Shown: positions 4,230 through 27,047, counted from the first letter of the stretch. The stretch: 64,000 nucleotides of DNA from Candidatus Micrarchaeota archaeon (GCA_018304385.1 JAGVWJ010000014.1:13621-77620), one strand, 5' to 3'. Notes: generated by a model not told the origin, from the sequence alone. Translations and numbers: made by a program.

Positions 4230-4251
4230 AACATAAGCTTTTAAACTCTTT

Positions 4252-6287: not shown

Positions 6288-6316
6288 TATTTAAATATTA
6301 TTTACTAGTTAATCTC

Positions 6317-11340: not shown

Positions 11341-12234
11341 ATGAGACTAGTAAATGAAAATGGGGAAGCCCTTAGCTGTATGGAAATAGATAACCAAAAG
11401 ATTGCTGCATTATCCGAAGAAAGATTACAGATACTAAGGATGTTAACAAAGCAGCCCATGTACGCAGCAGAGATTGCGCGAGCACTTGGTATGGAGGAAC
11501 AGGCGCTCTATTACCATATAAAGCTGCTACAAAAGGCAAGGTTAGTGAAGTTCACTGATTATGAAGAGAAAAAAGGAGGGGTGGCAAAAAAATTTATTGC
11601 TAGCTCTGAGAGTATTGCATTAGTGATAAGTAATAATTGGAAGCACTATACACATTCACAAATCTCAGTCCCAAAAATATTCACTCAATTTATTGATGAT
11701 GGAGCATTCAATGGAAAATTTATTGTTGGTTCTCCTGACCCACATGGAAAATATCGCGCACGTGCAAGCGAATTTCCAATTTTAGAGTTGGCAATGCTAC
11801 TGGGAAGCTATGCAACATTTTCTTTTCCACTTTATGTACTTGACACACAACTAAGTGAAGCTGATAAAAAACAGAATCTGATAATAGCTGGTGGACCAAA
11901 GGTAAACATGCTAACTGCGGAAATAAATGATACATTGCCATTGCGCTTTGATAAAGCAACATTTGAAATTTATAGTAAATTTTCCAAGAAAAGATATAGT
12001 GGGAACATTGGTGTTATAGAGCTATTGCCAAATCCATTTGCAAAAAATAAGCGAATAATGGTTGTTGGTGGATTGAATCATCATGGCACGCGTGCTGCAA
12101 TATTTGCGATAATTAAAAAGATGAAGGAAGTAGAATCAGGAAACATGCATAATCCCAAGGCAATCGCAAAAGTCGTCGAAGGTTTTGATGAGAATGGAGA
12201 TGGAATAGTTGATGCTGTTGAGGTATTGGAATAG
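11341..12234 (+). CDS. ArsR-type winged-HTH regulator with uncharacterised C-terminal domain
   Basis: RLQILRMLTKQPMYAAEIARALGMEEQALYYHIKLL is a classic ArsR/SmtB HTH. The C-terminal 200 aa could not be assigned. Confidence 0.65.
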   Translation: MRLVNENGEALSCMEIDNQKIAALSEERLQILRMLTKQPMYAAEIARALGMEEQALYYHIKLLQKARLVKFTDYEEKKGGVAKKFIASSESIALVISNNWKHYTHSQISVPKIFTQFIDDGAFNGKFIVGSPDPHGKYRARASEFPILELAMLLGSYATFSFPLYVLDTQLSEADKKQNLIIAGGPKVNMLTAEINDTLPLRFDKATFEIYSKFSKKRYSGNIGVIELLPNPFAKNKRIMVVGGLNHHGTRAAIFAIIKKMKEVESGNMHNPKAIAKVVEGFDENGDGIVDAVEVLE

Positions 12235-12239
12235 TTACT

Positions 12240-12267
12240 GCCATGAGCTTTGGGCATTGAGCCAATG
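12240..12267 (+). repeat. heptamer array, GC type, 4 units
   Basis: gccatga gctttgg gcattga gccaatg, followed directly by the paralog-1 promoter motif. Confidence 0.8.
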
Positions 12268-12268
12268 C

Positions 12269-12297
12269 CTACCTTCTTAATCCCTTGTTACCACAAC
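12269..12297 (+). promoter_or_regulatory. conserved promoter motif of the repeat-protein family (paralog 1)
   Basis: ctaccttcttaatcccttgttaccacaac, ending 6 nt before the ATG. Confidence 0.6.
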
Positions 12298-12303: not shown

Positions 12304-13254
12304 ATGCATAAAGCTTCAGTAACAGTAGTATTTGGTAGAGAACACGAAACAAGACGTATTAGAGCCCCACATTTAAGACTAATTCAGGGTGGTTTAGCCA
12401 ATCATAAACCAGAACCAGAAGAAAGGTCAATTAACTCTTCAAGAACCGTAGAAACAGAATTCAAACGTTGGCTAGCCTTGTTTTTTATTAAGCGAGGATA
12501 TTTTTGTATTACCAAGAAAGGTTGTGATGAGCTAGCGGAAATTATAAGAAATCGATATATGGAGAATGCAAGAGAATATTTAGGTATAAACCCTACTGAT
12601 TCGTATAGGGATAATTATGTAATTACGGTAGTGGGAGTTTTAACAGATAGCAAGATTAAGGAAAGAATAAAAAGGCACATTAAAAAAATGCTAGAAGAAG
12701 GAAAAGCTGAAGAATTATATGATAAAGGGTACATTGATCGTGCTAATGAAGTAGATTGGGAAAAAAAAGAGGTACGTATTGTTGTAATAAGAAAACTCCT
12801 AGAGATAACTAGCATTGAACCTAAGGATAGTAGTTATGACCTTTTTAATAATAGTGGTTTAGTTAGAGTACTTAAAAAATATCATAAAGATTCTCACTAT
12901 AATGCTCTGGTAGAAGCAGGTTACGCATATTCTGAAGATGAGATTAAAGAACATGCAAGAACTATGCAATTTGGAACTGAAAGAATATATAAATGGGAGA
13001 TGAAAAGCGTTGGAAATTACTTTTGGGAAAGTATAGACATGAGAACTGCCGCAACTAGATGGGTCATATGGAAATTAAATAAAAATTCAAGAGAGATAAT
13101 ATTGGGTGATTTTAAAAATAATGGATTAGGCGGATTGTTAACTCATCATTACAAAGATTCTCCTTATGAAGCGCTTCTAGAAGCAGGTCTTGTCACTCCA
13201 GCAGATGAAGCACATATGCGCCGCTATGGCCAAGCAAGATTCAAAGAGGTCTAA
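12304..13254 (+). CDS. 87-aa-repeat family protein, paralog 1 (1.5 repeat units)
   Basis: Shares the EFKRWLALFFI..G...IT.KG..ELA N-domain and the DF.NNGL.GLL..Y..SPY.AL.EAGYAYSE.EI.EHA...F.T..IY.WE repeat with 18933..20459 and 23200..24474. Start chosen 7 nt after the conserved promoter motif. Confidence 0.6.
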   Translation: MHKASVTVVFGREHETRRIRAPHLRLIQGGLANHKPEPEERSINSSRTVETEFKRWLALFFIKRGYFCITKKGCDELAEIIRNRYMENAREYLGINPTDSYRDNYVITVVGVLTDSKIKERIKRHIKKMLEEGKAEELYDKGYIDRANEVDWEKKEVRIVVIRKLLEITSIEPKDSSYDLFNNSGLVRVLKKYHKDSHYNALVEAGYAYSEDEIKEHARTMQFGTERIYKWEMKSVGNYFWESIDMRTAATRWVIWKLNKNSREIILGDFKNNGLGGLLTHHYKDSPYEALLEAGLVTPADEAHMRRYGQARFKEV

Positions 13255-13307
13255 TTAACCTATAACATTTATAAATAAACAAAGGAATAAGATAACTAGG
13301 TGGAATT

Positions 13308-13526
13308 ATGGAATACGTTCAAATTTCTAAAGAAGAATATGAAAAATTGCTAAAATACCGAGACATTGTAAACAACATTGAAGAGGATATTCATGAAGAG
13401 CTAAATGTAAAACCTATAACTGATAAGCGAGCAATAGAGAAACTAAAGCGATTGGATAAGGAGGTAAAGGAAGGCAAAAGAAAAACTTTTTCTAAGGAAG
13501 AATTCCTAGCTGAATTCGGTAAATGA
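13308..13526 (+). CDS. putative antitoxin
   Basis: 72-aa charged helical protein, 9 nt upstream of a RelE/ParE-like gene. Confidence 0.45.
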   Translation: MEYVQISKEEYEKLLKYRDIVNNIEEDIHEELNVKPITDKRAIEKLKRLDKEVKEGKRKTFSKEEFLAEFGK

Positions 13527-13535
13527 GTAGGTCTA

Positions 13536-13805
13536 ATGTATAACTTGGAATTCGAAAATGACTGGAGATCATATTTCAGAAATGTTCCCCTAGATATTCA
13601 AAATCGATTTAAGAAAAGACTAGACAAATATGAAACTTTTCCTAGCTTTGCTTTCAGACATGAAAAGCATGGTTTGGATTTCTTTGTAGATGAAATAAAT
13701 CAGTATCGAGTTTTATTTACATCAGACGAAAAGTCAAAAATTAGAAGATTCTATTTTATTGGGGATCATAAAGAATATGAGAAATTTCTAGGGACTAGAA
13801 AATAG
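13536..13805 (+). CDS. RelE/ParE-family toxin
   Basis: 89 aa. The YRVLFTSDEKSKIRRFYFIGDHKEYEKFL C-terminal pattern is typical of RelE/ParE. Confidence 0.6.
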   Translation: MYNLEFENDWRSYFRNVPLDIQNRFKKRLDKYETFPSFAFRHEKHGLDFFVDEINQYRVLFTSDEKSKIRRFYFIGDHKEYEKFLGTRK

Positions 13806-13813
13806 TTGATCTT

Positions 13814-15016
13814 ATGGCCGAAAGTCAGCAACTCTACGAATTCAAGAAAGCACTTAAACGCTTGGGTGAATTTCGAGGAAGCGGAACAGAATTAATATCT
13901 GCATACATAAACTCAGGCTCACCCTTGCATGATATGTCGAACCGCTTAAGAGAAGAAATGAATCAGGCAAGCAATATAAAATCCAAAAGCACTAGGACAA
14001 ATGTTATTGGCGCGCTAGAGCGCATCCTACAGCATTTCAAAATATACAAACAAACACCGCCAAATGGCTTAGCTGTTTTCTGCGGCAATATAAGCGATAA
14101 TCCTTCAAAAACAGATATAGACATATTCGCAATAGAACCGCCATTCAAATTAGGTATTGGAACATACCGCTGCGATAGCAAATTCTTTTTAGAACCATTG
14201 CAAAAAATGATTGAAAATACTGATACATACGGTATAGTAGTATTAGATGGAAGAGAGGCAACGCTTGCAATTCTTAGAGGCACACAGGTTGATATACTTA
14301 AAAAAGTTACTTCAATGGCGCATGCAAAAATTAAGGTGGGTGGACAATCAGCTAGGAGATACCAACGCCTCATAGAAGAAAGCATAGAATATTATTATAA
14401 AAAAGTTGGAGAAAATATGGATGAATTTTTTGTTGGAAAAACAAAAGGCGTTATCGTTGGTGGACCAGGGCCTACCAAGGAATTTTTTATGAAAATGAAG
14501 CCTTTCAATTATCAAATAAAAGTTTTAGGGGTGGTTGATACTGGGTACACTGACGAATATGGTGTAAGCGAGGTCCTCACAAAAAGCACAGATATACTCG
14601 CAGAACAAGAGACAATAAAAGAGAAAAAACTTATTGAAAACTTTATTAGGGAAATAGTAAATGATAGGCTAGCAACATATGGAGAAAAACAAGTTAGAGA
14701 TGCAATAGAAAATAATCAAGCAGACAAGGTATTGATATCTGAGGGATTAGAATACAAAAAAGCTACATACTCATGCAACGCTTGCGGTGCAAAACAGGAT
14801 AAATTAACAAAAGAAAAAGCACAAGACAGGATTTCATGCAAATGCGGAAGTGAAATGAAACTAGAAAAAGAAACAGAACTATTGGAAGAAATTGTAGAAT
14901 TAGCTAGAGCACACAATATTGAGGTTGAAATTATATCAACAAATACTAGTGAAGGGTTGCAACTACTAAATGGATTTGGAGGGATTGGTGCATTTTTAAG
15001 ATACCGAACCAAGTGA
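13814..15016 (+). CDS. prf1: peptide chain release factor aRF1
   Basis: NIKS motif (ASNIKSKS) and GGQ motif (KVGGQSARRYQR). The C-domain carries a CxxC...CxC ribbon. 400 aa. Confidence 0.95.
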   Translation: MAESQQLYEFKKALKRLGEFRGSGTELISAYINSGSPLHDMSNRLREEMNQASNIKSKSTRTNVIGALERILQHFKIYKQTPPNGLAVFCGNISDNPSKTDIDIFAIEPPFKLGIGTYRCDSKFFLEPLQKMIENTDTYGIVVLDGREATLAILRGTQVDILKKVTSMAHAKIKVGGQSARRYQRLIEESIEYYYKKVGENMDEFFVGKTKGVIVGGPGPTKEFFMKMKPFNYQIKVLGVVDTGYTDEYGVSEVLTKSTDILAEQETIKEKKLIENFIREIVNDRLATYGEKQVRDAIENNQADKVLISEGLEYKKATYSCNACGAKQDKLTKEKAQDRISCKCGSEMKLEKETELLEEIVELARAHNIEVEIISTNTSEGLQLLNGFGGIGAFLRYRTK

Positions 15017-15020
15017 GGTT

Positions 15021-15056
15021 CTTAAAAAGCTTGTGATGCATCACAGGATTTTTAAG
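15021..15056. terminator. palindromic hairpin between convergent genes
   Basis: cttaaaaa (15021-15028) pairs with tttttaag (15049-15056), enclosing the perfect palindrome tgtgatgcatcaca (15032-15045). It lies between the aRF1 stop and the stop of 15069..15641. Confidence 0.6.
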
Positions 15057-15068
15057 ATATAAGAAGAA

Positions 15069-15641
15069 CTAAGATGAATTTGTTTGATTATTTGGCTGAG
15101 AAGTGGGCACAGGTTCTGGCTGTGGGGTAGGCTCAGGTAATTTTATATTTATATTACACGAATTAGGCGCATACCCCTCGCTAATGCCAACCTCTAGTTT
15201 GGTTTTATAGAATTTACTTTGGTTTCCTTGTTTTATATTGATAATTGGGTTTGTTGCAGCATTTATTTTATTTAGACAGCTATTAAGATCAACAACACCA
15301 TCTAATGTTGTGCATTCACTACCTTCTAAAGCAAAAATGGTTATGTTCTTTCCTACCAAACCTGTACTACCCGCAAAATCAATGCCGCATTGCTGAATAT
15401 TTTTTCTAATTACATCACTATTAACATCCCGAAGATCTTGAATTATAAAAACATCACTAGATGCTAATAGCCCTTCAGCGAATACATCTGGTTCTACTGA
15501 ACCATCACTGTTATCAGTTTTATTAATAGTATCATTAATTTTATTGTCATCAGCTTGTATGGATTTTGAGGGGTTTGCAAGAATCAGATAAGCAGCCACT
15601 AATGCCAGTACTACTAGTAAAATAGTTACAGTATTTTTCAT
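15069..15641 (-). CDS. secreted 4-Cys domain protein
   Basis: N-terminal signal/anchor (TILLVVLALVAAYLILA) and a P/Q-rich C-terminus. Its Cys-spaced domain resembles the C-terminal domain of the upstream 705-aa protein. Confidence 0.5.
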   Translation of the reverse strand: MKNTVTILLVVLALVAAYLILANPSKSIQADDNKINDTINKTDNSDGSVEPDVFAEGLLASSDVFIIQDLRDVNSDVIRKNIQQCGIDFAGSTGLVGKNITIFALEGSECTTLDGVVDLNSCLNKINAATNPIINIKQGNQSKFYKTKLEVGISEGYAPNSCNINIKLPEPTPQPEPVPTSQPNNQTNSS

Positions 15642-15650
15642 ATGTCTCCC

Positions 15651-17768
15651 TTATTTAAACAATGTTGATATGGTGCAGGATTTATAATAAGCACTGTCAC
15701 CATGCAAAAATGCTTTAGTATCATATATAGTTGAAAGAGCAGGTTTTTCTGGAACTGCAGAATAAGCAAGCACAAACGAGGTAGTATTCTTAAGCTCAAT
15801 CTTGCAATCTGATTTATCTTTTACTATGTCAGCAGAGGAAGACTTAACAGTACACGTATCACCAAGCTCATAGATAAGCACAGACTTATTATTAGCACGT
15901 AAACTATCTGCAATCATGTTGGCGCAGGATTTCATATTGTTGGCAGCATCATAATTAACACCCTGCAATTCTAGAGCAATTGCAGAGGACTTTTTAGTAT
16001 TAATATCATATATAAACTCTTCAATATCAGCTGCTGATGCAGTTTTAGTTAAGAATACATATAAAAAGACAGAGAATATTAAAAGGCCAATAATAAATAT
16101 TCCATATCCGCCTAATAATACAAATTTTACTAAACCAGTTGCTAGTCTGAATTTTGCAAAGATACCAAAGAAAACAAATAAAGATAGGGCTGCTAGAGAT
16201 AAGAATGTAATAGCTGCTACGCCTCCAAAAGAAAATAGCTTGTTAGATGCGAAATCACTTAGTGAAGTCAATTTAGTCAGAGATACAAGGCTTGCTAAAC
16301 CGCTATTTATGCGTCTTGCGAATGACCTGAATTTAGAGCTTGCTAATTGGAATAAACCCTCTTTTTGTATCTTTAACAATTCACTTGCCTGCTGTGAAAC
16401 ATTTGAATATGAAGCTGAAAGCTGCTGCAGCTCATTATCTGTTAGCCCTTTTGAAAAACTTGCATCTAAATTATTACTAACATTTTTCAATTCATCTAGT
16501 CTTTTTCTATCTTTGCTACTCAAATCTTTTGTATCTAGAAGGAAGATTATTGCATTGGCAGTACTCTTTGTACTTAAAGATTGGTTGTACAGTTGTAATA
16601 CCTTTGGAATTAAAAGTTTGGTTTCAGAAATAGCCTCTTCATAGTCTGCAAGATCCTGCTCGATTGTTGAAAAATTGCGAAGTTCAATACTATTGTTTAT
16701 TTTATTTGTAAGGTCATTTATTTTATTTAGGTTTATTCTTAAGGATTCATTGGAAACACTGTTTAATGCAGCAGATGTATCTGCAGAAACTTCACCTGCA
16801 CTTACTGATAATGGATCAAATAATGAAGAAAACTGGATTGCCTTTGTTTCAGAGGTCCTAAACAAGAATCTGGAAACTGTGTGGTTGTACACCTCAAAAC
16901 TTATAGATTTGTGATTTACATAAGGTGCAGATTTGCTTAAAATTGAATTCGCATTGTTTTCTAAAAGATTAAGTTGACTACCATTAAAAGATATGTCTGG
17001 GCACATCGCAAAACACTTTTCATCAATACATCTCTGAACTTCTGCAGGGTCAGTAGTTGGTGTTCTGACTCTTGTATTTTCTAAGGTAGATTTATGCGTT
17101 CTTAATTGAGGGACAATTGATTTTAGTTCGGTTAATGAGGATGCCAAGTTTTCATCGTTTATGTTTTCCATTAAAGATAACGCATTTCTAACTAGTTTAT
17201 CTGTTTCATCGCTTGCCTTTCCATATTCTTTTATTAAAGCAATCGTATCTTCAAAGCTTATTGTTTTTTTAATGCCTTTTGCATAACTCGCTGAATATAA
17301 GACTAGCGCTACTTTATAACAACCTTCATCACTATCACAATATATATACCCTGAACCATATTTGATCCCATTTAAAAGTAAAATTTGTCTACAAGCATAT
17401 TCTTCTTTGCCAAGAAATCTTCCACCATCATTTCTACTAAGATTATAATCTAAAATTGCCTGTTTTAAAGATGCCAACTCCTCTGTTGAAGGATATGTTG
17501 TTTGCTTATAATACGCACCAAGAACACTTTTTATGTCGTTTTCAGTCTGCAATGGCTCTCCATTTTTTAGAAGGAAGAGGGGTTTTCCATCTAATTGGAC
17601 TATAGAATAATTAATATTATCCAAGGTAAAGCTGCTTGCATTTAGTCTAGTTGCATTTTCTTTGTCATACAAAAAGTTTTTAGCATCAAAAGCAGCAAAA
17701 CTAAAATAGGATAAAAGTAAAAGATAAAATATACACCTTGCCGCCTTGAACATACACATATTCCCCAC
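15651..17768 (-). CDS. large membrane protein (extracellular domain + 4 TM + C-terminal 4-Cys domain)
   Basis: 705 aa with an N-terminal signal, a hydrophobic block around residues 500-590, and Cys-containing N- and C-terminal ectodomains. No family recognised. Confidence 0.55.
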   Translation of the reverse strand: MGNMCMFKAARCIFYLLLLSYFSFAAFDAKNFLYDKENATRLNASSFTLDNINYSIVQLDGKPLFLLKNGEPLQTENDIKSVLGAYYKQTTYPSTEELASLKQAILDYNLSRNDGGRFLGKEEYACRQILLLNGIKYGSGYIYCDSDEGCYKVALVLYSASYAKGIKKTISFEDTIALIKEYGKASDETDKLVRNALSLMENINDENLASSLTELKSIVPQLRTHKSTLENTRVRTPTTDPAEVQRCIDEKCFAMCPDISFNGSQLNLLENNANSILSKSAPYVNHKSISFEVYNHTVSRFLFRTSETKAIQFSSLFDPLSVSAGEVSADTSAALNSVSNESLRINLNKINDLTNKINNSIELRNFSTIEQDLADYEEAISETKLLIPKVLQLYNQSLSTKSTANAIIFLLDTKDLSSKDRKRLDELKNVSNNLDASFSKGLTDNELQQLSASYSNVSQQASELLKIQKEGLFQLASSKFRSFARRINSGLASLVSLTKLTSLSDFASNKLFSFGGVAAITFLSLAALSLFVFFGIFAKFRLATGLVKFVLLGGYGIFIIGLLIFSVFLYVFLTKTASAADIEEFIYDINTKKSSAIALELQGVNYDAANNMKSCANMIADSLRANNKSVLIYELGDTCTVKSSSADIVKDKSDCKIELKNTTSFVLAYSAVPEKPALSTIYDTKAFLHGDSAYYKSCTISTLFK

Positions 17769-17784
17769 ACAATATTTAAATTAC

Positions 17785-18771
17785 TTATCCTTCGCGATTA
17801 ATTACATATTCTGCAAGTTGGTTTAATGCTTTTTTTGCTTCAGAATCTTTTAAACCTTCTAATATCTTAAATGCCTTTGATTTAAATTCCTCTGCTTTTT
17901 TATTTGCATAATCAATCGCACCAATACTTTTGAGTATTGATATGACCTTTTTTAAATCATCTTGATTTTTAGAATGAGAGGATAGAATTTTCTTTATAAA
18001 CTGTTTTTCTTGTTCATTTGCATTTTTTAATGCATATATTATCATAAGTGTTCGCTTGCCTTCTGAGATGTCGCCTCCAATCTCTTTTTTATACTTTTCA
18101 AAATCCCCAATAAGATTCAAAACATCATCTTTGATTTGAAAAGAAAACCCAAGATATTCACCGGCAGATTTTAGATTATTTATATCACTCTTATTTGCGC
18201 CGCCTAAGTAAGCACCGATTTCGCACGCTAAGCCAAGTAGCGCTGCTGTTTTTCCACTAATCATATTGATATAATCGCTTTCTGAGATATCAAAGTTATT
18301 TTTTGTATGCCAATTAAGCTCTATCCCTTGACCTTCGACTACGCGTCTAAAAGCGGTTCCATATAACTGAGCTATATGTAATTTTTCCTTTTCTTTTAAT
18401 TCTAAATTAATTATTTCCTGCCAAATAGATGTATAAAATGCATCGCCTGAGTTAAGCGCAACTGGTATACCATAAATCTTATGAAGCGTCGGTTCGCCTC
18501 TTCGCATGTCAGAATTATCTTCTATATCGTCATGAATTAATGTAAAATTATGAAACAATTCGATAATGGCTGCTGGCTTGATTATTTTTTTACTATCGCT
18601 GCCAAATGCTTCGCAGCATAGAAAAGTTAGAATAGGGCGAATGCGCTTTCCACCCCTCTTTATGTAAGGTAAGAGCATATTATAGACTTCTTTAGGCTCT
18701 GCTGGAACCATTCTTTCAATTTCTTTCTCTAGTAATTCTAGCTCTTCTTTTACTAAATCATAAAATTGCAT
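17785..18771 (-). CDS. idsA: geranylgeranyl diphosphate synthase (polyprenyl synthetase)
   Basis: First Asp-rich motif LIHDDIEDNSDMRRG and second motif KDDVLN. Confidence 0.9.
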   Translation of the reverse strand: MQFYDLVKEELELLEKEIERMVPAEPKEVYNMLLPYIKRGGKRIRPILTFLCCEAFGSDSKKIIKPAAIIELFHNFTLIHDDIEDNSDMRRGEPTLHKIYGIPVALNSGDAFYTSIWQEIINLELKEKEKLHIAQLYGTAFRRVVEGQGIELNWHTKNNFDISESDYINMISGKTAALLGLACEIGAYLGGANKSDINNLKSAGEYLGFSFQIKDDVLNLIGDFEKYKKEIGGDISEGKRTLMIIYALKNANEQEKQFIKKILSSHSKNQDDLKKVISILKSIGAIDYANKKAEEFKSKAFKILEGLKDSEAKKALNQLAEYVINREG

Positions 18772-18811
18772 GAGAAAAATAAGCGAAGAGGGGTTTATAA
18801 TTATTGCTTTG

Positions 18812-18865
18812 CAACAAGGTTTAGCCCCTAGGAAAGTTATTTTGATTATGAGCTAAACCTCGTTG
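18812..18865. promoter_or_regulatory. 14-bp-stem inverted repeat in divergent promoter region
   Basis: caacaaggtttagc (18812-18825) matches the reverse complement of gctaaacctcgttg (18852-18865) at 13 of 14 positions, with a 26-nt spacer. It lies between the idsA start and paralog 2. Confidence 0.55.
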
Positions 18866-18896
18866 TGAGCACTGAGCCATGAGCAGTGGGCAAAGA
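18862..18896 (+). repeat. heptamer array, 5 units
   Basis: gttgtga gcactga gccatga gcagtgg gcaaaga, followed directly by the paralog-2 promoter motif. Confidence 0.8.
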
Positions 18897-18925
18897 CTAC
18901 CTTTTTAATCCCTTGTTACCACAAT
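18897..18925 (+). promoter_or_regulatory. conserved promoter motif of the repeat-protein family (paralog 2)
   Basis: ctacctttttaatcccttgttaccacaat, ending 7 nt before the ATG. Confidence 0.6.
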
Positions 18926-18932
18926 TAATGAT

Positions 18933-20459
18933 ATGAGAAGACAGGCAATTGGCAGTGGGCAATGTGCAGTGAGCCAAAGGCCAATAGCTAAGAGCCAAGT
19001 GCCACTAACTGACAAAATAGATAAATCAACTGAATTCAAACGTTGGTTAGCTTTATTCTTTATTGAAAGAGGGAGATATAAAATTACTGGTAAAGGTTAT
19101 ACTGAACTAGCGCCACAAGTTATTAGACAAAACCTAGAATTTGGAGAACCAGTCAGCGATAGAAAAAGAGAACCTAGGTTAGAAAGCACAAGACCATTAA
19201 CTCCAAAAGAGATTAAGGAAACAGTAGCAGCCAGAGTAGAAGGAATGATTAGAGAGGGAAAGACTGAAGAATTACTTGATGAAGGACATCTAGCTTATAA
19301 ATCAAATTGGAAAAATAAACAAACTAGAATAACAGTAATAAAAAAACTATTAGAATTTTTAGGCGCTAGTCCTGCTAGACTGGATAAATTAAGAGAAGAA
19401 TTAGGTGAACTTATTCTAAAATCTGCAAGAGAAGAACCAACAGACACAAAAAGAATGCAAGAAGTTTTAGAAGAGATAAAAAGTAATTTAGAAAGAATTA
19501 GAAAACTAAGTTTCAACAATTTTAGATTTTATGGAATTTCTGGTATGACTGGTAAATACCATAGGAACTCTCCTTATTTAGTTTTAGTAGAAATAGGTTA
19601 CGCTTATTCTGAGGAAGAAATTAGAGAACATGCTAGAACTGGAAAGTTTGGAACTGATAAAATATATCCTTGGGAAATGCAAAAAGTCGGAAGTGAAGTT
19701 TATAAAAATAATTCAATTAGGGTAGCTGCAATAAAATGGGTAGTTTGGAAATTGAAAAAGAAACCATCAGATATAAATACAATTGATTTTCAAAGTAATT
19801 TAGGTGGATTATTAAGGTACTATAATGATTCTGTTTATTCTGCACTAGTCGACGCAGAATATGCACATACCACTGAAGAAATATTAACCCAATCTAAAAT
19901 TGGTATATTTAATGATAACAAAGCATACCCATGGGAACTAGAGAGAATGCCTTTTGGTCTATGGCCGAATAAAGAAATTAGAATAGCTGCTACTAAATGG
20001 TTAGTTTGGAAAACTAAAAAAGATCCAAGGGAGATAACTCATAAGGATTTTAACAATAATAGATTAAACGGATTATTAAATCATTGCGAAGAATATGCTT
20101 ATAGGGCATTAGTAGAAGCGGGTTATGTTTATTCTGAAGATAAAATTAAAGAGCATGCAGGAACTGGAGAATTTAAAACTGAAAAAATTTATCCCTGGGA
20201 GATGGACCCTGCTCCACATGGATTTTACGAAGAAAAAGAAAATAGAATAGCTGTAATAAAGTGGCTATTCTGGAAAACTAGAAAACAAGCAAAGGATATA
20301 ATTCAACAGGATTTTATCAATAATGGGATTGCTACTATACTAAAATATTATAATGGCTCCCCCTATGAAGCACTTTTAGAAGCAGATCTAATAAGACCAG
20401 AAAATGAATCATACATGCGAAAGCGTGGATATCTAAATCTACAAAAAAGACACAGTTAA
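18933..20459 (+). CDS. 87-aa-repeat family protein, paralog 2 (3.5 repeat units)
   Basis: Same family as 12304..13254 and 23200..24474. The N-terminal roughly 200 codons are near-identical at DNA level to paralog 3. Codons 5-25 are encoded by a 9-unit heptamer array. Confidence 0.6.
   Translation: MRRQAIGSGQCAVSQRPIAKSQVPLTDKIDKSTEFKRWLALFFIERGRYKITGKGYTELAPQVIRQNLEFGEPVSDRKREPRLESTRPLTPKEIKETVAARVEGMIREGKTEELLDEGHLAYKSNWKNKQTRITVIKKLLEFLGASPARLDKLREELGELILKSAREEPTDTKRMQEVLEEIKSNLERIRKLSFNNFRFYGISGMTGKYHRNSPYLVLVEIGYAYSEEEIREHARTGKFGTDKIYPWEMQKVGSEVYKNNSIRVAAIKWVVWKLKKKPSDINTIDFQSNLGGLLRYYNDSVYSALVDAEYAHTTEEILTQSKIGIFNDNKAYPWELERMPFGLWPNKEIRIAATKWLVWKTKKDPREITHKDFNNNRLNGLLNHCEEYAYRALVEAGYVYSEDKIKEHAGTGEFKTEKIYPWEMDPAPHGFYEEKENRIAVIKWLFWKTRKQAKDIIQQDFINNGIATILKYYNGSPYEALLEADLIRPENESYMRKRGYLNLQKRHS
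18945..19007 (+). repeat. heptamer array, GC type, 9 units, inside the 5' coding region of paralog 2
   Basis: gcaattg gcagtgg gcaatgt gcagtga gccaaag gccaata gctaaga gccaagt gccacta. Every unit starts with GC at an exact 7-nt spacing. Confidence 0.85.
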
Positions 20460-20758
20460 ATTCTCCTCTTATTTCCGCATTTTCCACACTTTAAGTAAAA
20501 TGAATTATGCTTTGCATCAAAAATAGCTTTGGCATTGCCATTAACTATCAAAAATGATAAACATTTCCTACAGAATTTTTTCTTCTGATCCTTGGTTAAT
20601 CTAATTTTATATTTCTTTACCAATGCCCAGAGCATTTCTATGTAGCGCTTTGTACGATCAGGGTGCGAAGCTGTATTTTCTTCTGCTTGCGCTAGCAAAA
20701 TTGCAATTGCATCTTTAGTTGTATTTTTTATCAGGCGTTTCTTAGCTTGAATGTTCAT
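20456..20758 (-). CDS. rnp4: RNase P protein component 4 (Rpr2/RPP21)
   Basis: 100 aa, basic, with a zinc ribbon FCRKC...CGKCG. Confidence 0.8.
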   Translation of the reverse strand: MNIQAKKRLIKNTTKDAIAILLAQAEENTASHPDRTKRYIEMLWALVKKYKIRLTKDQKKKFCRKCLSFLIVNGNAKAIFDAKHNSFYLKCGKCGNKRRI

Positions 20759-20793
20759 TGCTTTCGAAATATTGGTCTAATATTATAAATCTT

Positions 20794-21669
20794 ATGATTG
20801 ATCATTATGATATGACTGGACCCGTAGGCAACACTGGGAATTTTATAGAGGATTATTTCATTCACCCATTAGTTTCACAAACTGGGTATAATCCAGTAAA
20901 TACTGCAGTATATGCGATAATTGCAATAATTGCCCTTTATTTTATTTGGGATATCTTTAAACGCAAAAAAATAGTTATTGACAAAAAATTTGTTTATGCT
21001 GTTTTACCTTTTATTTTATTAGGATCGACAATGCGTGTTGTAACTGATTCAATAGATAATAATAAATTCAAGGCAATAACACCTATCCATGAGGCAATAA
21101 TAAATTCTCACATTTATGACTATGGTTACCTTACTGTTACCCCGGGAGTATATTTAGTTACTGCAGCGATATTATTTATATCAATGGGAGTTCTGCACTT
21201 AATTAAAAAATCGCAATATCTTGGACATGTTGGATTAATTCTGTGGCTATTCCATTTTCTTTTATTAGTACCGTTTATGCAGTATATTATGGATGCAATC
21301 CCAATATTGATTCTAGCTCTAATTCCAACAATAATCGCTTGGAAATATTTAAAGAATGAGATTTACGCATTAATTGTTGCTGGACACGCACTTGACGGCG
21401 CTGCAACTTTTTATGTTATTGATGTTTTTGGACCAAAGATTGGCAAGCTGTATTTTGAACAACACGTTGTTGGTGGATTTATTGGTGCAGTATTTGGAAC
21501 ATTTTTTGCATTTTATTTAGTAAAGTTAGCAATAAGCTTTGGAGTTGCGCATCTGCTTAAGAAAGAAAAGGAAGACGAAAATTTCAAGAACTTTATCGCA
21601 TTAGCAATTATGATAATGGGTTTTGCACCAGGCATAAGAGATGTGCTTAGAATGGTTGTTGGTGCGTAA
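20794..21669 (+). CDS. DUF63-like archaeal membrane protein
   Basis: Multi-TM protein with GHALDGAATFYVID, which I recall as the DUF63 signature. The ATG at 20794 is preferred over the TTG at 20758. Confidence 0.55.
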   Translation: MIDHYDMTGPVGNTGNFIEDYFIHPLVSQTGYNPVNTAVYAIIAIIALYFIWDIFKRKKIVIDKKFVYAVLPFILLGSTMRVVTDSIDNNKFKAITPIHEAIINSHIYDYGYLTVTPGVYLVTAAILFISMGVLHLIKKSQYLGHVGLILWLFHFLLLVPFMQYIMDAIPILILALIPTIIAWKYLKNEIYALIVAGHALDGAATFYVIDVFGPKIGKLYFEQHVVGGFIGAVFGTFFAFYLVKLAISFGVAHLLKKEKEDENFKNFIALAIMIMGFAPGIRDVLRMVVGA

Positions 21670-21672
21670 TTA

Positions 21673-22410
21673 ATGCAAATAAATAACGAACGCTTTCTAG
21701 AAATAGACTTTCTACGCGGCATCGGAATAGTAATGGTTGTAATTTTTCATTTATTTTTTGATTTTGATTATTTTGGAATTTTGCAAAATGAGATGTACGA
21801 AGGATCTTGGTTAATCTTCCAAAGAAGTACCGCTAGCTTACTAATTTTGGTATTCGGTATTTCACTGGTATTGAGTTATGATAGGGTAAAAGATAAAATA
21901 GAGAACCCATTCCTAAAATTTGGGAAACGCGCATTATTTCTTGCTGGAATAGCATCGTTAATCACATTAATAACTTGGATTTATCCGCATAAAGGGTTTA
22001 TAGTATTTGGAATAATTCATTTCTTAGCAATATCAGTTATTCTTGGGTATTTTTTCCTTAGATACTATTATATTAATTTATTGCTGGGCATTGCAACAGT
22101 TATTATTGGCCTGCAATTTAGTGAGTTAACAGTAGATACTAATTTATTATTTTGGCTTGGTCTGTCTTTCAAAGGATTTTATACATTAGACTACTTTCCT
22201 ATTTTTCCATGGTTTGGGATTGTTTTAATTGGAATGTTCTTTGGTAAGCGCTTTTATATTGGTGCTAAGAAAAACTTGGATTCTGGTATTGGGCAATCTT
22301 GGATCACAGATATGCTATCTTACTTAGGAAGAAAATCACTTCTAATTTATTTAATCCATCAGCCAATAATAATTGGGCTTTTACAGGTTTATTTGATAGC
22401 GAGCGGTTAG
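21673..22410 (+). CDS. DUF1624 / heparan-alpha-glucosaminide N-acetyltransferase-like membrane protein
   Basis: N-terminal RFLEIDFLRGIGIVMVVIFH motif and about 8 TM segments. Confidence 0.6.
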   Translation: MQINNERFLEIDFLRGIGIVMVVIFHLFFDFDYFGILQNEMYEGSWLIFQRSTASLLILVFGISLVLSYDRVKDKIENPFLKFGKRALFLAGIASLITLITWIYPHKGFIVFGIIHFLAISVILGYFFLRYYYINLLLGIATVIIGLQFSELTVDTNLLFWLGLSFKGFYTLDYFPIFPWFGIVLIGMFFGKRFYIGAKKNLDSGIGQSWITDMLSYLGRKSLLIYLIHQPIIIGLLQVYLIASG

Positions 22411-22448
22411 CCAGAGAGGATTAAAAATATTGTGCTGGAATTGGTATA

Positions 22449-23147
22449 ATGCGACTTGAAATTTTAGAAATTTCAAGGCTATTGGCCCGCAGGCCAATCA
22501 GCCCTGATAAAAACAATTTAGTCCCTAATATTTTAGCGATAGGTGGTCTGCTTCTTATATTTCTAGTGCCTTATTTTTACGCACAAGATACCGCTAACAA
22601 GCTACCTGAGATTCTACTTCTATTATACTTCGTACCTACATTTTTCGTATATTCAAACATGGATGAACGTAAATTTATCCTTGCAGTAATATTTATCGCT
22701 GGGATGGCAGAATCAATGAACGTTGGTTTTGGAGATTATAAATATCTAGATGCAATAAAGGTTCCGAATTGGGTATTCATAGGATGGGCGGATACTGCCT
22801 GGGCATTGATAACATTAAATAAAATGCTAAAACCAAATACAAACCGAAATTTAACGTTAGGAGCAATAGTTACTATTTTTGCTATTTACGCGATATTTGC
22901 TTCGCATTCTATTGAAGGATTTTTTATAAATTGCTTTATAATGTCAGCTATATTCTTTGCGATCAAGCCAAAATCATATAATATATTCCTAATCGCTGTT
23001 GTATTTGGAATGGTTATAGAATACTCTGGTGTCTTCCTTTTTGGAGCATGGAGTTATGCAATTAGCCCACCAGATCTAAGCAGGCTTGGTGCAATGTATT
23101 CTTTTATTTATTTCTTAGCTGCTATGATTTCGAGATATGAATTATAG
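22449..23147 (+). CDS. hypothetical polytopic membrane protein
   Basis: 232 aa with 6-7 hydrophobic segments. No motif recognised. Confidence 0.45.
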   Translation: MRLEILEISRLLARRPISPDKNNLVPNILAIGGLLLIFLVPYFYAQDTANKLPEILLLLYFVPTFFVYSNMDERKFILAVIFIAGMAESMNVGFGDYKYLDAIKVPNWVFIGWADTAWALITLNKMLKPNTNRNLTLGAIVTIFAIYAIFASHSIEGFFINCFIMSAIFFAIKPKSYNIFLIAVVFGMVIEYSGVFLFGAWSYAISPPDLSRLGAMYSFIYFLAAMISRYEL

Positions 23148-23163
23148 AAGCATTGAGTATATA

Positions 23164-23191
23164 CTACCTTTTATTCCTTTGTTACCACAAT
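23164..23191 (+). promoter_or_regulatory. conserved promoter motif of the repeat-protein family (paralog 3)
   Basis: ctaccttttattcctttgttaccacaat, ending 8 nt before the ATG. Confidence 0.6.
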
Positions 23192-23199
23192 TTATAGGT

Positions 23200-24474
23200 A
23201 TGACAAGACGTACTGCAATGAGCCATGAGCCTTGGGCAGTGGGCAAAACACGAAACGCTGGACGTGAGACTACAATAAGCCAACAGCCACTAACTGATCA
23301 AATAGAAAAATCAGCAGAATTTAAGCGACGGTTAGCTTTATTCTTTATTGAAATAGGGAGATACAAGATTACTGATAAAGGATATGAAGAACTAGCACCT
23401 GTAGTATTTAGGCAAAATCTAGAATTTGGAGAACCTGTTAGTGATAGAGTTAGAGAACCAAGGTTAGAAAGTAAAAGACCATTAACTCCAAAAGAGATTA
23501 AGGAAACAGTAGCAGCGAAAGTAGAAGGAATGATTAGAGAGGGAAAGACTGAAGAATTACTTGATGAGGGGCATATAATATATAAAGCAGATTGGAAAGA
23601 AAAAAGAACTAGAATTAAAGTAATAAAAAAACTATTAGAATTTTTAGGAGCTAGTCCTGTTAGATTGGATGGATTAAGAGAAGAATTAAGCGAACTTATT
23701 CTAAAATCTGCCAGAGAAGAAAAGACAGATACAAAAAGAATGCAAGAGGTTTTAGAAGAGATTCAAAGAAATTTGGAGAGAGTTAGAAAAATAACCAAAG
23801 ATGATTTTATTAACAATGGATTAGGTGGGTTGTTAATAAGTCATTACAAAAACTCTCCGCATTCTGCGTTAGTAGAAGCTGGATATGCTTACTCTGAAAA
23901 TGAAATAAAGGAGCATGCTAGAACTGGAGAATTTGGAACTGATAAGATATATCCTTGGGAACATAACCAAACCGTACATAAGTTTTATAAAAAATCTGAA
24001 ATTAGGGTGGCAGCTATTGAATGGCTTATTTGGAGACTAAAGAAAGATCCAAAGGAAATAAATACTGACGATTTCAGGAACAATGGGTTAAGTGGATTGC
24101 TAAATCACTATAATGGTTCTCCCTATGCTGCACTACTAGAAGCTGGTTATGCTTATTCTGAAGATGAAATCTTAGAACATGCTAAAAAAATGGAGTTCAG
24201 AACTGATAGGATTTATCCTTGGGAACTAACAAAAATGCCTGTTGAACTATGGCCTAATAAAGAAATCAGAATAGCAGCAACCAAATGGTTGCTTTGGAAG
24301 TTAAAAAAAGAAGAACCAAGAGAAATAACCAGAAGGGATTTTATTAAAAACGGGCTCCAAGGCTTATTAGATAGATACGATGGCTCTCCCTATGAAGCAC
24401 TTCTAGAAGCCAGCCTAGTAGCGCCCACAGATGAATCTTACATGCGAGAACGAGGATACAGAAACTTAATATAG
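23200..24474 (+). CDS. 87-aa-repeat family protein, paralog 3 (2.5 repeat units)
   Basis: Start moved to MTRRTAMSHEP (ATG 23200), 9 nt after the conserved promoter motif, which removes the overlap with 22449..23147. Codons 6-17 are encoded by a 5-unit heptamer array. Confidence 0.6.
   Translation: MTRRTAMSHEPWAVGKTRNAGRETTISQQPLTDQIEKSAEFKRRLALFFIEIGRYKITDKGYEELAPVVFRQNLEFGEPVSDRVREPRLESKRPLTPKEIKETVAAKVEGMIREGKTEELLDEGHIIYKADWKEKRTRIKVIKKLLEFLGASPVRLDGLREELSELILKSAREEKTDTKRMQEVLEEIQRNLERVRKITKDDFINNGLGGLLISHYKNSPHSALVEAGYAYSENEIKEHARTGEFGTDKIYPWEHNQTVHKFYKKSEIRVAAIEWLIWRLKKDPKEINTDDFRNNGLSGLLNHYNGSPYAALLEAGYAYSEDEILEHAKKMEFRTDRIYPWELTKMPVELWPNKEIRIAATKWLLWKLKKEEPREITRRDFIKNGLQGLLDRYDGSPYEALLEASLVAPTDESYMRERGYRNLI
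23215..23249 (+). repeat. heptamer array, GC type, 5 units, inside the 5' coding region of paralog 3
   Basis: gcaatga gccatga gccttgg gcagtgg gcaaaac. Confidence 0.8.
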
Positions 24475-26078: not shown

Positions 26079-26102
26079 TGCTCAAAGCCCATTGCTCACG
26101 GC
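26068..26102 (-). repeat. heptamer array, GC type, 5 units, spanning the sufC stop and sufS start
   Basis: Minus strand: gccgtga gcaatgg gctttga gcaatga gcaatat. It encodes the last residues of SufC (TAVSNGL-stop) and the first codons of SufS (MSN). Confidence 0.8.
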
Positions 26103-26834: not shown

Positions 26835-26950
26835 CGTCTTATGCCCTCCTTATGCTCAAGCACTAGAGTATCTCTTAGGTTAGCCGCAGGACCCACCGCA
26901 AAGCGGTTCCCCCGCGGCGGCCTTCTTATGTATTCATTATGTAAATAAAA
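26835..26950 (-). repeat. promoter-leader repeat, copy 4 (divergent variant upstream of sufC)
   Basis: It shares the 5' ttttatttacataatgaatacataagaaggccg and the 3' aaggagggcata..ATG. The central hairpin is replaced by a GC-rich structure (accgc-ttt-gcggt nested in gccgc...gcggc). Confidence 0.5.
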
Positions 26951-26985
26951 CCTTGGCCCAAAGCTCATGGCTCATTGCTCATGGC
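26951..26985 (-). repeat. heptamer array, GC type, 5 units, centre of the sufC/sufB divergent region
   Basis: Minus strand: gccatga gcaatga gccatga gctttgg gccaagg, followed directly by the ttttatttacata of leader copy 4. Confidence 0.85.
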
Positions 26986-27047
26986 AGTATAATTTAGGTA
27001 TGCCTAAATTTTTAAACTTAAGCATAGATATTCATATAGTTGATTTT

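What the first reader, a model, noticed from the sequence alone, without database searches (positions are those of the whole stretch)
12304..24474. Three clustered paralogs built from 87-aa tandem repeats with variable unit number
12304-13254, 18933-20459 and 23200-24474 share an N-terminal module (EFKRWLALFFI.RG...IT.KG..ELA, then a charged helical region). They also share C-terminal tandem repeats of about 87 aa (DF.NNGL.GLL..Y.GSPY.ALLEAGYAYSE.EI.EHA.TG.F.TDKIYPWE....P...W.....RI.A.KWL.WKLKK.P.EI) ending in a conserved half unit. The unit counts are 1.5, 3.5 and 2.5. Paralogs 2 and 3 are almost identical at the DNA level over the N-terminal region (for example ggaatgattagagagggaaagactgaagaattacttgatga in both), which implies recent duplication or gene conversion. 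I cannot assign the repeat to a known domain. The regular aromatic and basic pattern (W..WKLKK) would suit nucleic-acid or surface binding.
Basis: partly seen in the sequence, partly recalled or inferred. Interest (0 to 1): 0.7.

Follow-up and report, generated by a model that had tools for sequence, protein, structure and literature searches.

The report
Micrarchaeal paralogs built from HNH_repeat/DUF4046-like repeats
Three neighbouring genes of a tiny symbiotic archaeon (Micrarchaeota) encode soluble all-helical proteins built from 2, 4 and 3 copies of one repeat, which is a divergent branch of two named but uncharacterised repeat families (DUF4046 and the "homing endonuclease associated repeat"); their function is unknown and is most plausibly DNA- or transcription-related.

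Summary
12304-13254, 18933-20459 and 23200-24474 are intact paralogous genes with 1.5, 3.5 and 2.5 copies of an ~88-aa unit (per-unit E 1e-32 to 1e-58) and dN/dS of about 0.2.

The "half unit" is a phase artefact. The structural module is a four-helix core (W..RIAAxKWLxWKLKKxPxEITxxDFxNNGLxGLLxxYxGSPYxALLEAG). The first core is hidden behind the N-terminal module, giving 2, 4 and 3 complete cores.

The window proteins hit no Pfam, NCBIfam, PADLOC, PHROG or PDB entry. Their HMMER family has 1,544 clusters at 50% identity. It includes members that pass Pfam thresholds for PF13255 (DUF4046) and PF18780 (HNH_repeat), as well as sigma-70 and AbrB/MazE fusions. AlphaFold models are confident (pLDDT 85 and 94), and Foldseek finds no similar solved fold.

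The same genome population carries at least 7 paralogs. Six of them, including all three in the window (P3 as a variant copy), carry a family-specific ~27-bp TATA-to-start block directly before the ATG.

The P2/P3 N-terminal halves are 85-97% identical in DNA (dS 0.45, against 1.2-1.5 in the repeats). That points to a mosaic history, not near identity.

Function is inferred only: a modular DNA-binding or transcription-associated array (about 0.4), against a protein-protein scaffold (about 0.3). I rate it a new variant of a known, uncharacterised kind, of moderate interest.

The parts
12240..12271 (+). Degenerate heptamer array / hairpin (TGGGCATTGAGCCAATGCCTA) between the upstream gene's stop (12234) and the P1 promoter block
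   Evidence: Sequence read. Terminator-like hairpin at 12251-12271. Same NRTGRGC-type array as elsewhere in the window.
12269..12296 (+). P1 copy of the family-specific promoter block (CTACCTTCTTAATCCCTTGTTACCACAA): TATA-like TTCTTAAT plus a conserved TATA-to-start segment containing TTGT-N4-ACAA
   Evidence: alignment A5. 0 matches in shuffles.
12304..13254 (+). Paralog P1 (316 aa, identical to NCBI J4450_03420). aa 1-48 are a disordered basic tail, aa 49-151 the N-terminal helical module, and aa 296-316 a conserved C-terminal tail (LVTPADEAHMRRYG).
   Evidence: (AlphaFold pLDDT 85, residues 1-45 below 50).
12757..12921 (+). P1 core 1 (aa 152-206), contiguous: WEKKEVRIVVIRKLLEITSIEPKDSSYDLFNNSGLVRVLKKYHKDSHYNALVEAG
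   Evidence: E 2.7e-14. hhalign probability 99% for this position in the family. Helices H155-169, 178-183, 187-193 and 198-204.
12985..13188 (+). P1 PWE linker plus core 2 (aa 228-295)
   Evidence: E 6.5e-31. Helices H244-258, 267-272, 276-282 and 287-293.
18864..18898 (+). Heptamer array (TGTGAGC ACTGAGC CATGAGC AGTGGGC) just upstream of the P2 promoter block
   Evidence: It is 86% identical to 23219-23247, which lies inside the P3 coding region.
18897..18924 (+). P2 copy of the promoter block (CTACCTTTTTAATCCCTTGTTACCACAA)
   Evidence: All 5 exact matches of the 26-mer in the metagenome collection lie directly upstream of family paralogs.
18933..20459 (+). Paralog P2 (508 aa, identical to NCBI J4450_03455). 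The N-terminal tail (aa 1-30) is encoded by a heptamer array (18940-19007). The N-terminal module is aa 31-123.
19302..19595 (+). P2 core 1, split into helix 1 (19302-19385) and helices 2-4 (19491-19595) by a ~35-aa charged helical insert (19386-19490)
   Evidence: HMM positions 12-39 and 33-66.
19662..20384 (+). P2 cores 2-4 with their PWE linkers (19662-19856, 19926-20123, 20187-20384). In between lie the ~20-aa 'AYSxxEIxEHAxTGxF' inserts of the long unit type.
   Evidence: E 2e-28 to 5e-33.
23164..23191 (+). P3 copy of the promoter block (CTACCTTTTATTCCTTTGTTACCACAAT; one deletion and two substitutions)
23200..24474 (+). Paralog P3 (424 aa from the ATG at 23200; the ORF is open from 23137). 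The N-terminal tail is partly encoded by a heptamer array (23211-23249). The N-terminal module is aa 37-131.
   Evidence: (P0001 98% identical, P0002 92% identical).
23593..23883 (+). P3 core 1, split (23593-23667 and 23776-23883) by the same charged helical insert as in P2
23947..24411 (+). P3 cores 2 and 3 with PWE linkers (23947-24147, 24211-24411), followed by the conserved C-terminal tail (24412-24471)
   Evidence: E 6e-34 and 3e-32.
19021..19470 (+). Segment of P2 that is 77-97% identical in DNA to P3 23306-23755 (peak 95-97% at 19171-19260): the recently exchanged N-terminal module

Best explanation
SHOWN
- The three genes are functional paralogs of a family with at least 7 members in this Micrarchaeota (DPANN archaeon) population.
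- The proteins are soluble, with no hydrophobic segment, and entirely alpha-helical.
- Each has four parts: a disordered basic N-terminal tail; a family-specific helical N-terminal module (FKRWLALFFIxRGxYKITxKGYxELA...GKAEELYDxGYI); 2, 4 or 3 four-helix cores; and a conserved C-terminal tail (LVxPxDExYMR).
- Each core is one long helix (RIAAxKWLxWKLKK), a PxEIT turn and three short helices (DFxxN / GLxGLL / SPYxALLEAG).
- Cores are joined by 'YPWE..P..W' linkers. In this lineage the linkers carry an extra 20-aa helix, which makes the 87-89-aa 'long' unit; relatives have 68-70-aa units without it.
- The unit belongs to the HNH_repeat (PF18780) / DUF4046 (PF13255) repeat superfamily, which has no characterised member and no solved structure.
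- Six of the seven paralogs, including all three in the window (P3 as a variant copy), carry the same ~27-bp block immediately upstream of the start codon, while both flanks have diverged.

INFERRED
- The block is an archaeal TATA box placed about 27-31 nt before the ATG, giving a leaderless or near-leaderless mRNA. It is followed by a conserved operator-like segment (CCCTTGTTACCACAAT, containing TTGT-N4-ACAA). The paralogs would then be co-regulated as one regulon.
- The repeat array is a modular nucleic-acid-binding, most likely dsDNA-binding, or transcription-associated platform. The number of cores would set the length of the surface contacted.
- The basic tail and the basic N-terminal module (pI 9.6-9.9 in P2 and P3, 8.5 in P1) would add non-specific affinity or partner contacts.

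The DNA-binding step is not demonstrated.
For: Real genes under constraint:
- dN/dS is 0.14-0.25 between P2 and P3 in both halves.
- The proteins are identical to NCBI-annotated proteins.
- Orthologues at 92-98% identity in other samples keep the same unit number.

Architecture:
- Unit HMMs.
- hhalign places the hidden first core with 99% probability.
- AlphaFold full-length P1: pLDDT 85, pTM 0.75, with the same four-helix pattern twice. Single unit: pLDDT 93.6.
- Maximum Kyte-Doolittle hydropathy is below 1.0, so no transmembrane segment or signal peptide.

Superfamily link:
- The profile search finds 1,544 clusters at E<=1e-3 and 295 at E<=1e-30.
- Among these, P0114, P0139 and P0141 pass the PF13255 threshold.
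- P0151, P0199, P0200, P0201 and P0202 pass the PF18780 threshold.
- In a census of 97 members, 6 hit DUF4046 and 4 hit HNH_repeat.
- P0202 carries both hits in the precomputed Pfam annotation.
- The HNH_repeat-positive units of P0151 hit Bacillus DUF4046 genes by tblastn.
- P0007, at 49% identity to P3, matches P0151 at E 3e-26.

Transcription/DNA context:
- Fusions to sigma-70 r2/r3/r4 (P0053, P0121; weak in P0141).
- A fusion to an AbrB/MazE/SpoVT DNA-binding domain (P0085).
- PF18780 is by name the repeat associated with homing endonucleases.
- Five to seven conserved basic positions per unit: K/R at positions 1, 18, 21, 26, 31, 34 and 37.

Promoter block:
-.
- 5 of 5 exact 26-mer matches in 241 million metagenome records lie directly upstream of family paralogs.
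Against: - No window protein reaches any Pfam threshold itself.
- Foldseek finds no similar DNA-binding or other fold in PDB or BFVD for the full protein or the single unit. All E-values exceed 2 and all TM-scores are below 0.4.
- The repeat region is nearly neutral (pI 6.0-8.9, net charge -4 to +5). It carries as many conserved acidic as basic residues.
- No nuclease domain is present, and no bona fide HNH-nuclease protein was retrieved. The link to homing endonucleases therefore rests on a Pfam model only.
- In sigma and AbrB fusions the added domain could equally be a sensor or partner-binding module.
- The promoter block is absent from the most divergent paralog (P0014) and from other Micrarchaeota species. 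It is lineage-specific and could be kept partly by gene conversion.
Confidence: 0.4

Rival explanations
1. The array is a protein-protein interaction scaffold or adaptor, comparable to TPR, HEAT or Sel1 solenoids. It would bind partner proteins such as transcription machinery or a host-interaction factor, and would not bind nucleic acid.
For: - All-helical tandem repeats with a near-neutral repeat region.
- Many conserved residues are hydrophobic or aromatic.
- In AbrB/SpoVT- and sigma-type proteins, appended domains are often sensor or partner-binding modules (established knowledge). Such fusions are seen here.
- The weak top Foldseek hits are helical scaffolds such as 14-3-3 and TPR/SLR proteins, though none is significant.
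Against: - Those Foldseek hits have E>2 and TM<0.2.
- The unit is linked to a repeat family named for its association with homing endonucleases.
- No conserved neighbouring gene suggests a partner.
Confidence: 0.3
2. The genes are nuclease-less derivatives of homing-endonuclease-type selfish elements. Their DNA-binding arrays would have spread through the genome as a mobile gene cassette (promoter block plus ORF) with little benefit to the host.
For: - Relationship to PF18780.
- At least 7 dispersed monocistronic copies sit between unrelated housekeeping genes, with no conserved neighbours.
- Conserved 5' block and mosaic P2/P3 history.
- DUF4046 relatives are multi-copy on Bacillus cereus-group plasmids.
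Against: - No nuclease, transposase or integrase domain in or next to the genes.
- Strong purifying selection.
- Paralogs are old (dS saturated) and units are individually conserved across paralogs.
- No terminal repeats or target duplications were seen.
- None was found in phage records or IMG/VR.
Confidence: 0.1
3. They are contingency (phase-variable) or host-interaction proteins of the episymbiont. Expression would be switched by slippage of the heptamer arrays in the 5' coding region.
For: - Heptamer arrays lie in the first 30-110 nt of the P2 and P3 coding regions, and in that of the paralog P0008. A 7-nt unit shifts the reading frame.
- The family is multi-copy with a conserved 5' end.
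Against: - The arrays are degenerate, with no two adjacent identical heptamers beyond 2 copies, so slippage should be rare.
- The same arrays occur at about 10 other places unrelated to this family.
- No signal peptide or membrane anchor.
- Orthologues in other samples keep frame and length.
Confidence: 0.05

Closest known systems
Pfam PF13255 DUF4046 (Bacillus cereus group, Priestia and Clostridium proteins, mostly about 300-340 aa, many plasmid-borne)
   Same: - Same repeat core and linker: W...A.KWLIEEKL....E.....S...F..NGLxGML...FxxSPYxAI..AYP..FKPWEF..P..W.
- Tandem arrays with variable copy number and several paralogs per replicon.
- Members of the window's HMMER family pass the PF13255 threshold.
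   Different: - The window proteins do not reach the Pfam threshold.
- Their units carry an extra ~20-aa helix, giving 87-89 aa against about 68.
- They have a separate N-terminal module and a conserved C-terminal tail.
- They are archaeal and chromosomal.
- DUF4046 itself has no known function, and no paper mentions it.
Pfam PF18780 HNH_repeat (homing endonuclease associated repeat, 54-aa model)
   Same: - The 54-aa model covers exactly the four-helix core, from ENRIAAVKLL to ALQEAGL, in family members P0151, P0199, P0200 and P0201. Scores are 31-41 bits against a threshold of 26.
- The family has no solved structure (PMC8078820), which agrees with the empty Foldseek results here.
   Different: - There is no HNH or other nuclease domain in the window proteins or in any retrieved relative.
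- The window proteins do not hit the model.
- The PWE linker and the 20-aa insert are not part of PF18780.
Modular helical nucleic-acid-binding repeat proteins (TALE, PUF, PPR, mTERF) - an analogy of working principle only
   Same: Tandem helical units with variable unit number between paralogs. Units are individually diverged rather than homogenised. Some surface positions are hypervariable: 8, 9, 12, 41, 45, 54.
   Different: No sequence or structural similarity was detected. The unit is twice as long. No recognition code is evident and no binding is shown.

Membership tests
PF13255 DUF4046 | Protein scores above the Pfam gathering threshold (22.8 bits) for the DUF4046 model | tested here: not met
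   P1-P3 have no PF13255 hit even at E<=1. Only 1 of 69 isolated units hit it, at E 0.076. Relatives in the same HMMER family do pass: P0114 52.8, P0141 56.0 and P0139 71.8 bits, and 6 of 97 in the census.
PF13255 DUF4046 | Tandem units of the form W..A.KWL....(P/D).E(I/L)....F..N.L.G(L/M)L...(Y/F)..SPY.A....(Y/A)...(PWE) | tested here: met
   Direct comparison of P0055-P0057 (PF13255-positive) with the window units. The P3 query retrieves them at E 2e-12 to 7e-10.
PF18780 HNH_repeat | Protein scores above the Pfam gathering threshold (26 bits) | tested here: not met
   P1-P3 have no hit and 0 of 69 isolated units hit. Bridging family members pass: P0151 39.3, P0199 41.4, P0200 34.0, P0202 32.9 and P0201 30.9 bits.
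PF18780 HNH_repeat | Association with a homing-endonuclease (HNH) nuclease domain in the same protein | tested here: not met
   No nuclease domain in P1-P3 or in 120+ relatives scanned.
HNH_repeat/DUF4046 superfamily (homology in the broad sense) | Significant profile-level connection through intermediate sequences | tested here: met
   The A1 profile matches P0151 at E 3.9e-70. P0151 matches PF18780. P0151 matches P0007, a 49%-identical homologue of P3, at E 3.4e-26. P0151 units match annotated Bacillus DUF4046 genes at E down to 3e-7, and an unannotated Alicyclobacillus gene at 6e-8.
Sequence-specific DNA-binding repeat arrays (functional class) | Demonstrated binding to nucleic acid, or structural similarity to a known DNA-binding fold | tested here: inconclusive
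   Foldseek against PDB and BFVD gives nothing significant. PDB sequence profiles give nothing. Only contextual evidence exists, from sigma-70 and AbrB fusions. Binding itself is not testable with these tools.
Anti-phage defence / phage protein families | Match to PADLOC or PHROG models | tested here: not met
   No hits. No relatives in phage records or IMG/VR.

The most novel reading that the evidence does not exclude
The family is a new class of programmable helical DNA-recognition arrays, with one four-helix core reading a fixed short stretch of DNA. Its natural targets in this genome would be its own conserved promoter/operator block or the dispersed sense-oriented (NRTGRGC)n heptamer arrays that sit at many gene 5' ends. 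The 7+ paralogs with 2-5 cores would then form a small regulatory system specific to these reduced archaea. The same principle would explain the sigma-70 and AbrB fusions, and the DUF4046 proteins next to replication genes on Bacillus plasmids.
Probability: 0.06. Interest if true: 0.85.

Novelty: new variant of a known kind. Interest (0 to 1): 0.45.

Why it matters
If the inference holds, a very large and completely uncharacterised repeat superfamily would gain a first working hypothesis and a tractable entry point. The superfamily has about 1,500 clusters at 50% identity across DPANN and other archaea, Bacillota and Chloroflexota. It includes DUF4046 and the homing-endonuclease-associated repeat.

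The entry point has three attractions:
- The proteins are small, soluble and confidently modelled.
- The fold appears absent from the PDB.
- One genome carries a co-regulated set of paralogs.

For DPANN biology, the result points to a lineage-specific multi-paralog regulon in a genome with few known regulators. If the proteins turn out to be ordinary scaffolds, the value is limited to better annotation: a new Pfam-style subfamily and corrected repeat boundaries.

Tried and rejected
1. Direct domain assignment of P1-P3 with Pfam, NCBIfam, PADLOC and PHROGs gave nothing.
2. PDB sequence searches gave nothing significant. I tried the single protein, the unit profile and the N-module profile. The best result was the integrase N-domain 3lys at E 0.96, treated as noise.
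3. Foldseek of full-length P1 against PDB and BFVD, and of a single unit against PDB, gave no hit with E<2.
4. Scanning 69 isolated units against Pfam at E<=10 gave no PF18780 hit and only one weak PF13255 hit. The link needs whole-protein scores of intermediate members.
5. I tested whether the FKRWL... N-terminal module is itself a degenerate unit. hhalign recognises only the W..K..RI part, which is the first core, so the idea is rejected.
6. The N-module profile search for other architectures found only one more family fragment.
7. Concerted evolution of units is rejected. Units within a protein are 36-60% identical; the only recent internal duplication is P0008 u1/u3 at 86%.
8. Diversifying selection on the repeats is rejected, since dN/dS is about 0.2.
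9. A RecX relationship, suggested by one JGI name for a cluster member, has no Pfam or Foldseek support.
10. The 'Frankia_peptide' PF14407 hits (18 of 97 members) are all far below its 48-bit threshold, so I treat them as local similarity to the PWE linker.
11. Heptamer arrays as a family-specific target are not supported. There are 12 arrays in the window, and most are unrelated to these genes.
12. The genome-contig scan gave only 3 loci, all Micrarchaeota. It was too pattern-limited for a census.
13. Rfam gave no hit in the window.
14. No paper mentions DUF4046 or PF13255. PF18780 appears only in a list of repeat families without known structure.

Full report
**1. The observation**

The window is a low-GC (~36%) archaeal chromosome segment. 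Around the paralogs lie housekeeping genes: aRF1, RNase P Rpp21, polyprenyl synthase and NifU, plus ORFs whose translations look like GlmS, SufS, SufC and SufB (read from the sequences, not scanned).

P1 (12304-13254, 316 aa) and P2 (18933-20459, 508 aa) are identical to NCBI proteins J4450_03420 and J4450_03455 of a Candidatus Micrarchaeota MAG. P3 (23200-24474) has 98% and 92% identical counterparts in other samples.

An HMM made from two P3 units finds 1, 3 and 2 full units plus one terminal partial unit in P1, P2 and P3. Per-unit E-values are 1e-32 to 1e-58. The quoted 41-mer is present exactly in P2 and P3. The description is therefore correct and far beyond chance.

**2. Correcting the anatomy**

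The terminal 'half unit' is always present in the family, across 57 homologues with 1-5 full units. A weak C-terminal half of a unit also precedes the first full unit.

I re-phased the unit to run from 'YPWE' to 'EAG'. In that phase:
- P1 has two complete cores, aa 152-206 and 228-295.
- P2 has four, and P3 has three.
- In P2 and P3 the first core is split between helix 1 and helix 2 by a ~35-aa charged helical insert.
- hhalign places that first core with 99% probability.

AlphaFold2 supports this reading. Full-length P1 gives pLDDT 85 and pTM 0.75. Residues 1-45 are disordered, and the same pattern of one 15-residue helix plus three short helices occurs twice. A single re-phased unit gives pLDDT 93.6.

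The family has two unit classes. The 'long' class is 87-89 aa and is the one found here; it carries an extra helix, AYSxxEIxEHAxTGxF, in the linker. The 'short' class is 68-70 aa.

The proteins have no hydrophobic segment, with maximum KD(19) below 1.0.

**3. Evolution**

P2 and P3 are 65% identical in protein. P1 is 38-39% identical to either.

P2/P3 DNA identity is mostly 85-97% over 19021-19470 against 23306-23755, and falls to 47-80% in the repeats. dS is 0.45 in the N-terminal module against 1.2-1.5 in the repeats, while dN/dS is 0.14-0.25 throughout. The genes are therefore under purifying selection, and the N-terminal halves share a more recent history through conversion or recombination. 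'Almost identical' overstates this.

Units within one protein are only 36-60% identical. Some unit types are shared across paralogs, for example P2.u2, P3.u2 and P0008.u2 at 58-71%. There is no concerted evolution.

**4. Family size and paralogs**

The same population carries at least seven paralogs:
- P1-P3 in the window.
- P0006, in locus L001.
- P0014 and a 486-aa protein (matching P0008 in length, contig size and N-terminal sequence), both in L004.
- A 378-aa protein, in L014.

They are all monocistronic and sit between unrelated housekeeping genes.

A full HMMER profile search of 1.84 billion representatives gives 1,544 clusters at E<=1e-3 and 295 at E<=1e-30. Named members are Micrarchaeota, a Thermoplasmatota archaeon, Chloroflexota and Bacillota.

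**5. What the repeat is**

P1-P3 hit nothing in Pfam, NCBIfam, PADLOC or PHROGs. Members of the same HMMER family do pass Pfam thresholds:
- PF13255 DUF4046: P0114, P0139 and P0141, and 6 of 97 in a census.
- PF18780 HNH_repeat ('homing endonuclease associated repeat'): P0151 at 39.3 bits covering model positions 3-53 of 54, which is exactly the four-helix core. P0199-P0202 also pass.

Further links connect the two families. P0202 carries both hits in the precomputed Pfam annotation. P0151's units hit annotated Bacillus DUF4046 genes by tblastn. P0151 also matches P0007, a 49%-identical homologue of P3, at E 3e-26.

The unit is therefore a divergent branch of an HNH_repeat/DUF4046 superfamily. 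Neither family has a characterised member. No paper mentions DUF4046. PF18780 is listed among repeat families without known structure (PMC8078820). Consistently, Foldseek finds nothing similar in PDB or BFVD for the full model or the single unit, and PDB sequence profiles find nothing.

**6. Clues to function**

In favour of a DNA or transcription role:
- Three independent family members are fused to sigma-70 domains: P0053 with r2/r3/r4, P0121 with r2, and P0141 weakly. One member, P0085, is fused to an N-terminal AbrB/MazE/SpoVT DNA-binding domain.
- PF18780 is, by its name, found with homing-endonuclease nucleases.
- Each unit has five to seven conserved basic positions. The N-terminal module of P2 and P3 is basic (pI 9.6-9.9; 8.5 in P1), and the tails have pI 8.5-11.3.

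Against:
- The repeat region is nearly neutral.
- No nuclease is present anywhere in the retrieved family.
- No structural similarity to a DNA-binding fold was found.

DUF4046 genes are multi-copy on 265 Bacillus cereus-group and Priestia plasmids. In two rep_cluster_459 plasmids they lie next to or near the replication initiator gene. They are absent from phage records.

**7. The shared upstream block**

CTACCTTTTTAATCCCTTGTTACCACAA lies at 12269-12296 and 18897-18924, and as a variant at 23164-23191. Each copy sits directly before the start codon.

The same block precedes three other paralogs, while the sequence on both sides is unrelated. All five exact 26-mer matches in the metagenome collection lie directly upstream of family paralogs. 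The most divergent paralog (P0014) and other Micrarchaeota species lack the block, but keep a TATA-like box about 30 nt before the ATG.

I read the block as an archaeal TATA box (TTTTTAAT) about 27-31 nt before the ATG, which implies leaderless or near-leaderless mRNA. It is followed by a conserved, possibly operator-like TATA-to-start segment containing TTGT-N4-ACAA. The paralogs would then be co-regulated. This rests on general knowledge of archaeal promoters. No transcription data were available.

**8. Heptamer arrays**

Degenerate (NRTGRGC)n arrays flank the block. They lie upstream in P1 and P2, and inside the first codons of P2, P3 and P0008, where they encode the disordered tails.

Twelve such arrays occur in the window, against 0 or 1 in each of 20 shuffles. 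They are not specific to this family, and they are too degenerate for frequent slippage.

**9. Verdict**

The genes encode a Micrarchaeota-expanded, co-regulated subfamily of a very large, uncharacterised helical repeat superfamily (HNH_repeat/DUF4046). The subfamily has a distinctive long unit and its own N-terminal module, and no fold match was found in the PDB by Foldseek.

The most likely role is a modular DNA-binding or transcription-associated array (confidence about 0.4). A protein-protein scaffold is the main rival (about 0.3). I rate it a new variant of a known kind, with interest 0.45.

Noticed in passing
window 2622-2649(-), 6241-6275(+), 12240-12268(+), 18864-18898(+), 18940-19007(+), 23211-23249(+), 26066-26107(-), 26949-26990(-), 30977-31011(+), 33288-33322(+), 33337-33364(-), 52634-52661(-), 57580-57614(-): Dispersed degenerate heptamer arrays of consensus (N R T G R G C)n, 4-6 copies each. 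A scan finds twelve in the window, against 0 or 1 in each of 20 shuffles; the one at 12240-12268 was seen by eye and scores below the scan threshold. Where I compared them with ORF starts, several lie at or just before a gene's 5' end in sense orientation. Some are translated into N-terminal extensions, for example in ORF 6242-7957 and in P2 and P3. They are not specific to the paralog family. Their function is unknown.
   Followed up: partly
window 33288-33364: Two heptamer arrays in opposite orientation form a long imperfect hairpin (GCCATGAGCAGTG..AGCC / GGCTCACTGCTCATGGC) in an intergenic region. The array upstream of P1 also folds into a terminator-like hairpin (12251-12271).
   Followed up: no
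window 18928-18936; L001 ~5996-6003; L004 ~11700-11709: In P2 and in the paralogs P0006 and P0008, a short out-of-frame ATG lies 4-5 nt before the real start, between the promoter block and the start codon. Examples are ttaATGatATGa, which reads M-I-stop and overlaps the start, ATGcATG, and ATGgtATG. P1 and P3 lack it. This could matter for start selection on a leaderless mRNA.
   Followed up: no
window 4241-4260: A weaker copy of the promoter block (TTAAACTCTTTTTACCACAA, 3 mismatches) lies about 100 nt upstream of an unrelated 450-aa ORF (4362-5714). The 'TTACCACAA' part may be a more general promoter-proximal motif of this organism.
   Followed up: no
window 13308-13526 and 13536-13805: Two small adjacent ORFs (72 and 89 aa) lie directly after P1. 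Their layout resembles a toxin-antitoxin pair, but neither has a Pfam hit. Paralogs elsewhere also lie near HicA (L004) and PIN (L001) genes. This may be coincidence in a genome rich in toxin-antitoxin modules.
   Followed up: partly
L016 8001-10040 (P0053); also P0121 and P0141: These proteins fuse sigma-70 regions 2-4 to the same repeat array, and P0053 and P0121 also share the Micrarchaeota-type C-terminal tail (…LVTxxDExxMR). The contig of P0053 carries a DUF2582 gene, which from memory is a mainly archaeal winged-helix family. A sigma-factor domain in such a context would be unusual.
   Followed up: partly
L018 15025-18219 (B. thuringiensis pHS18-4); L019 3099-4091 (B. cereus pBC07-1): DUF4046-type repeat proteins are multi-copy on 265 Bacillus cereus-group and Priestia plasmids. 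In two rep_cluster_459 plasmids they sit next to, or 2 kb from, the replication initiator gene. One of them is a 1,064-aa giant.
   Followed up: partly
window 11341-12234: The gene upstream of P1 combines an ArsR-type HTH (HTH_20/HTH_5) with an S-layer-like outer domain (PF05124). This is an odd domain pairing.
   Followed up: no
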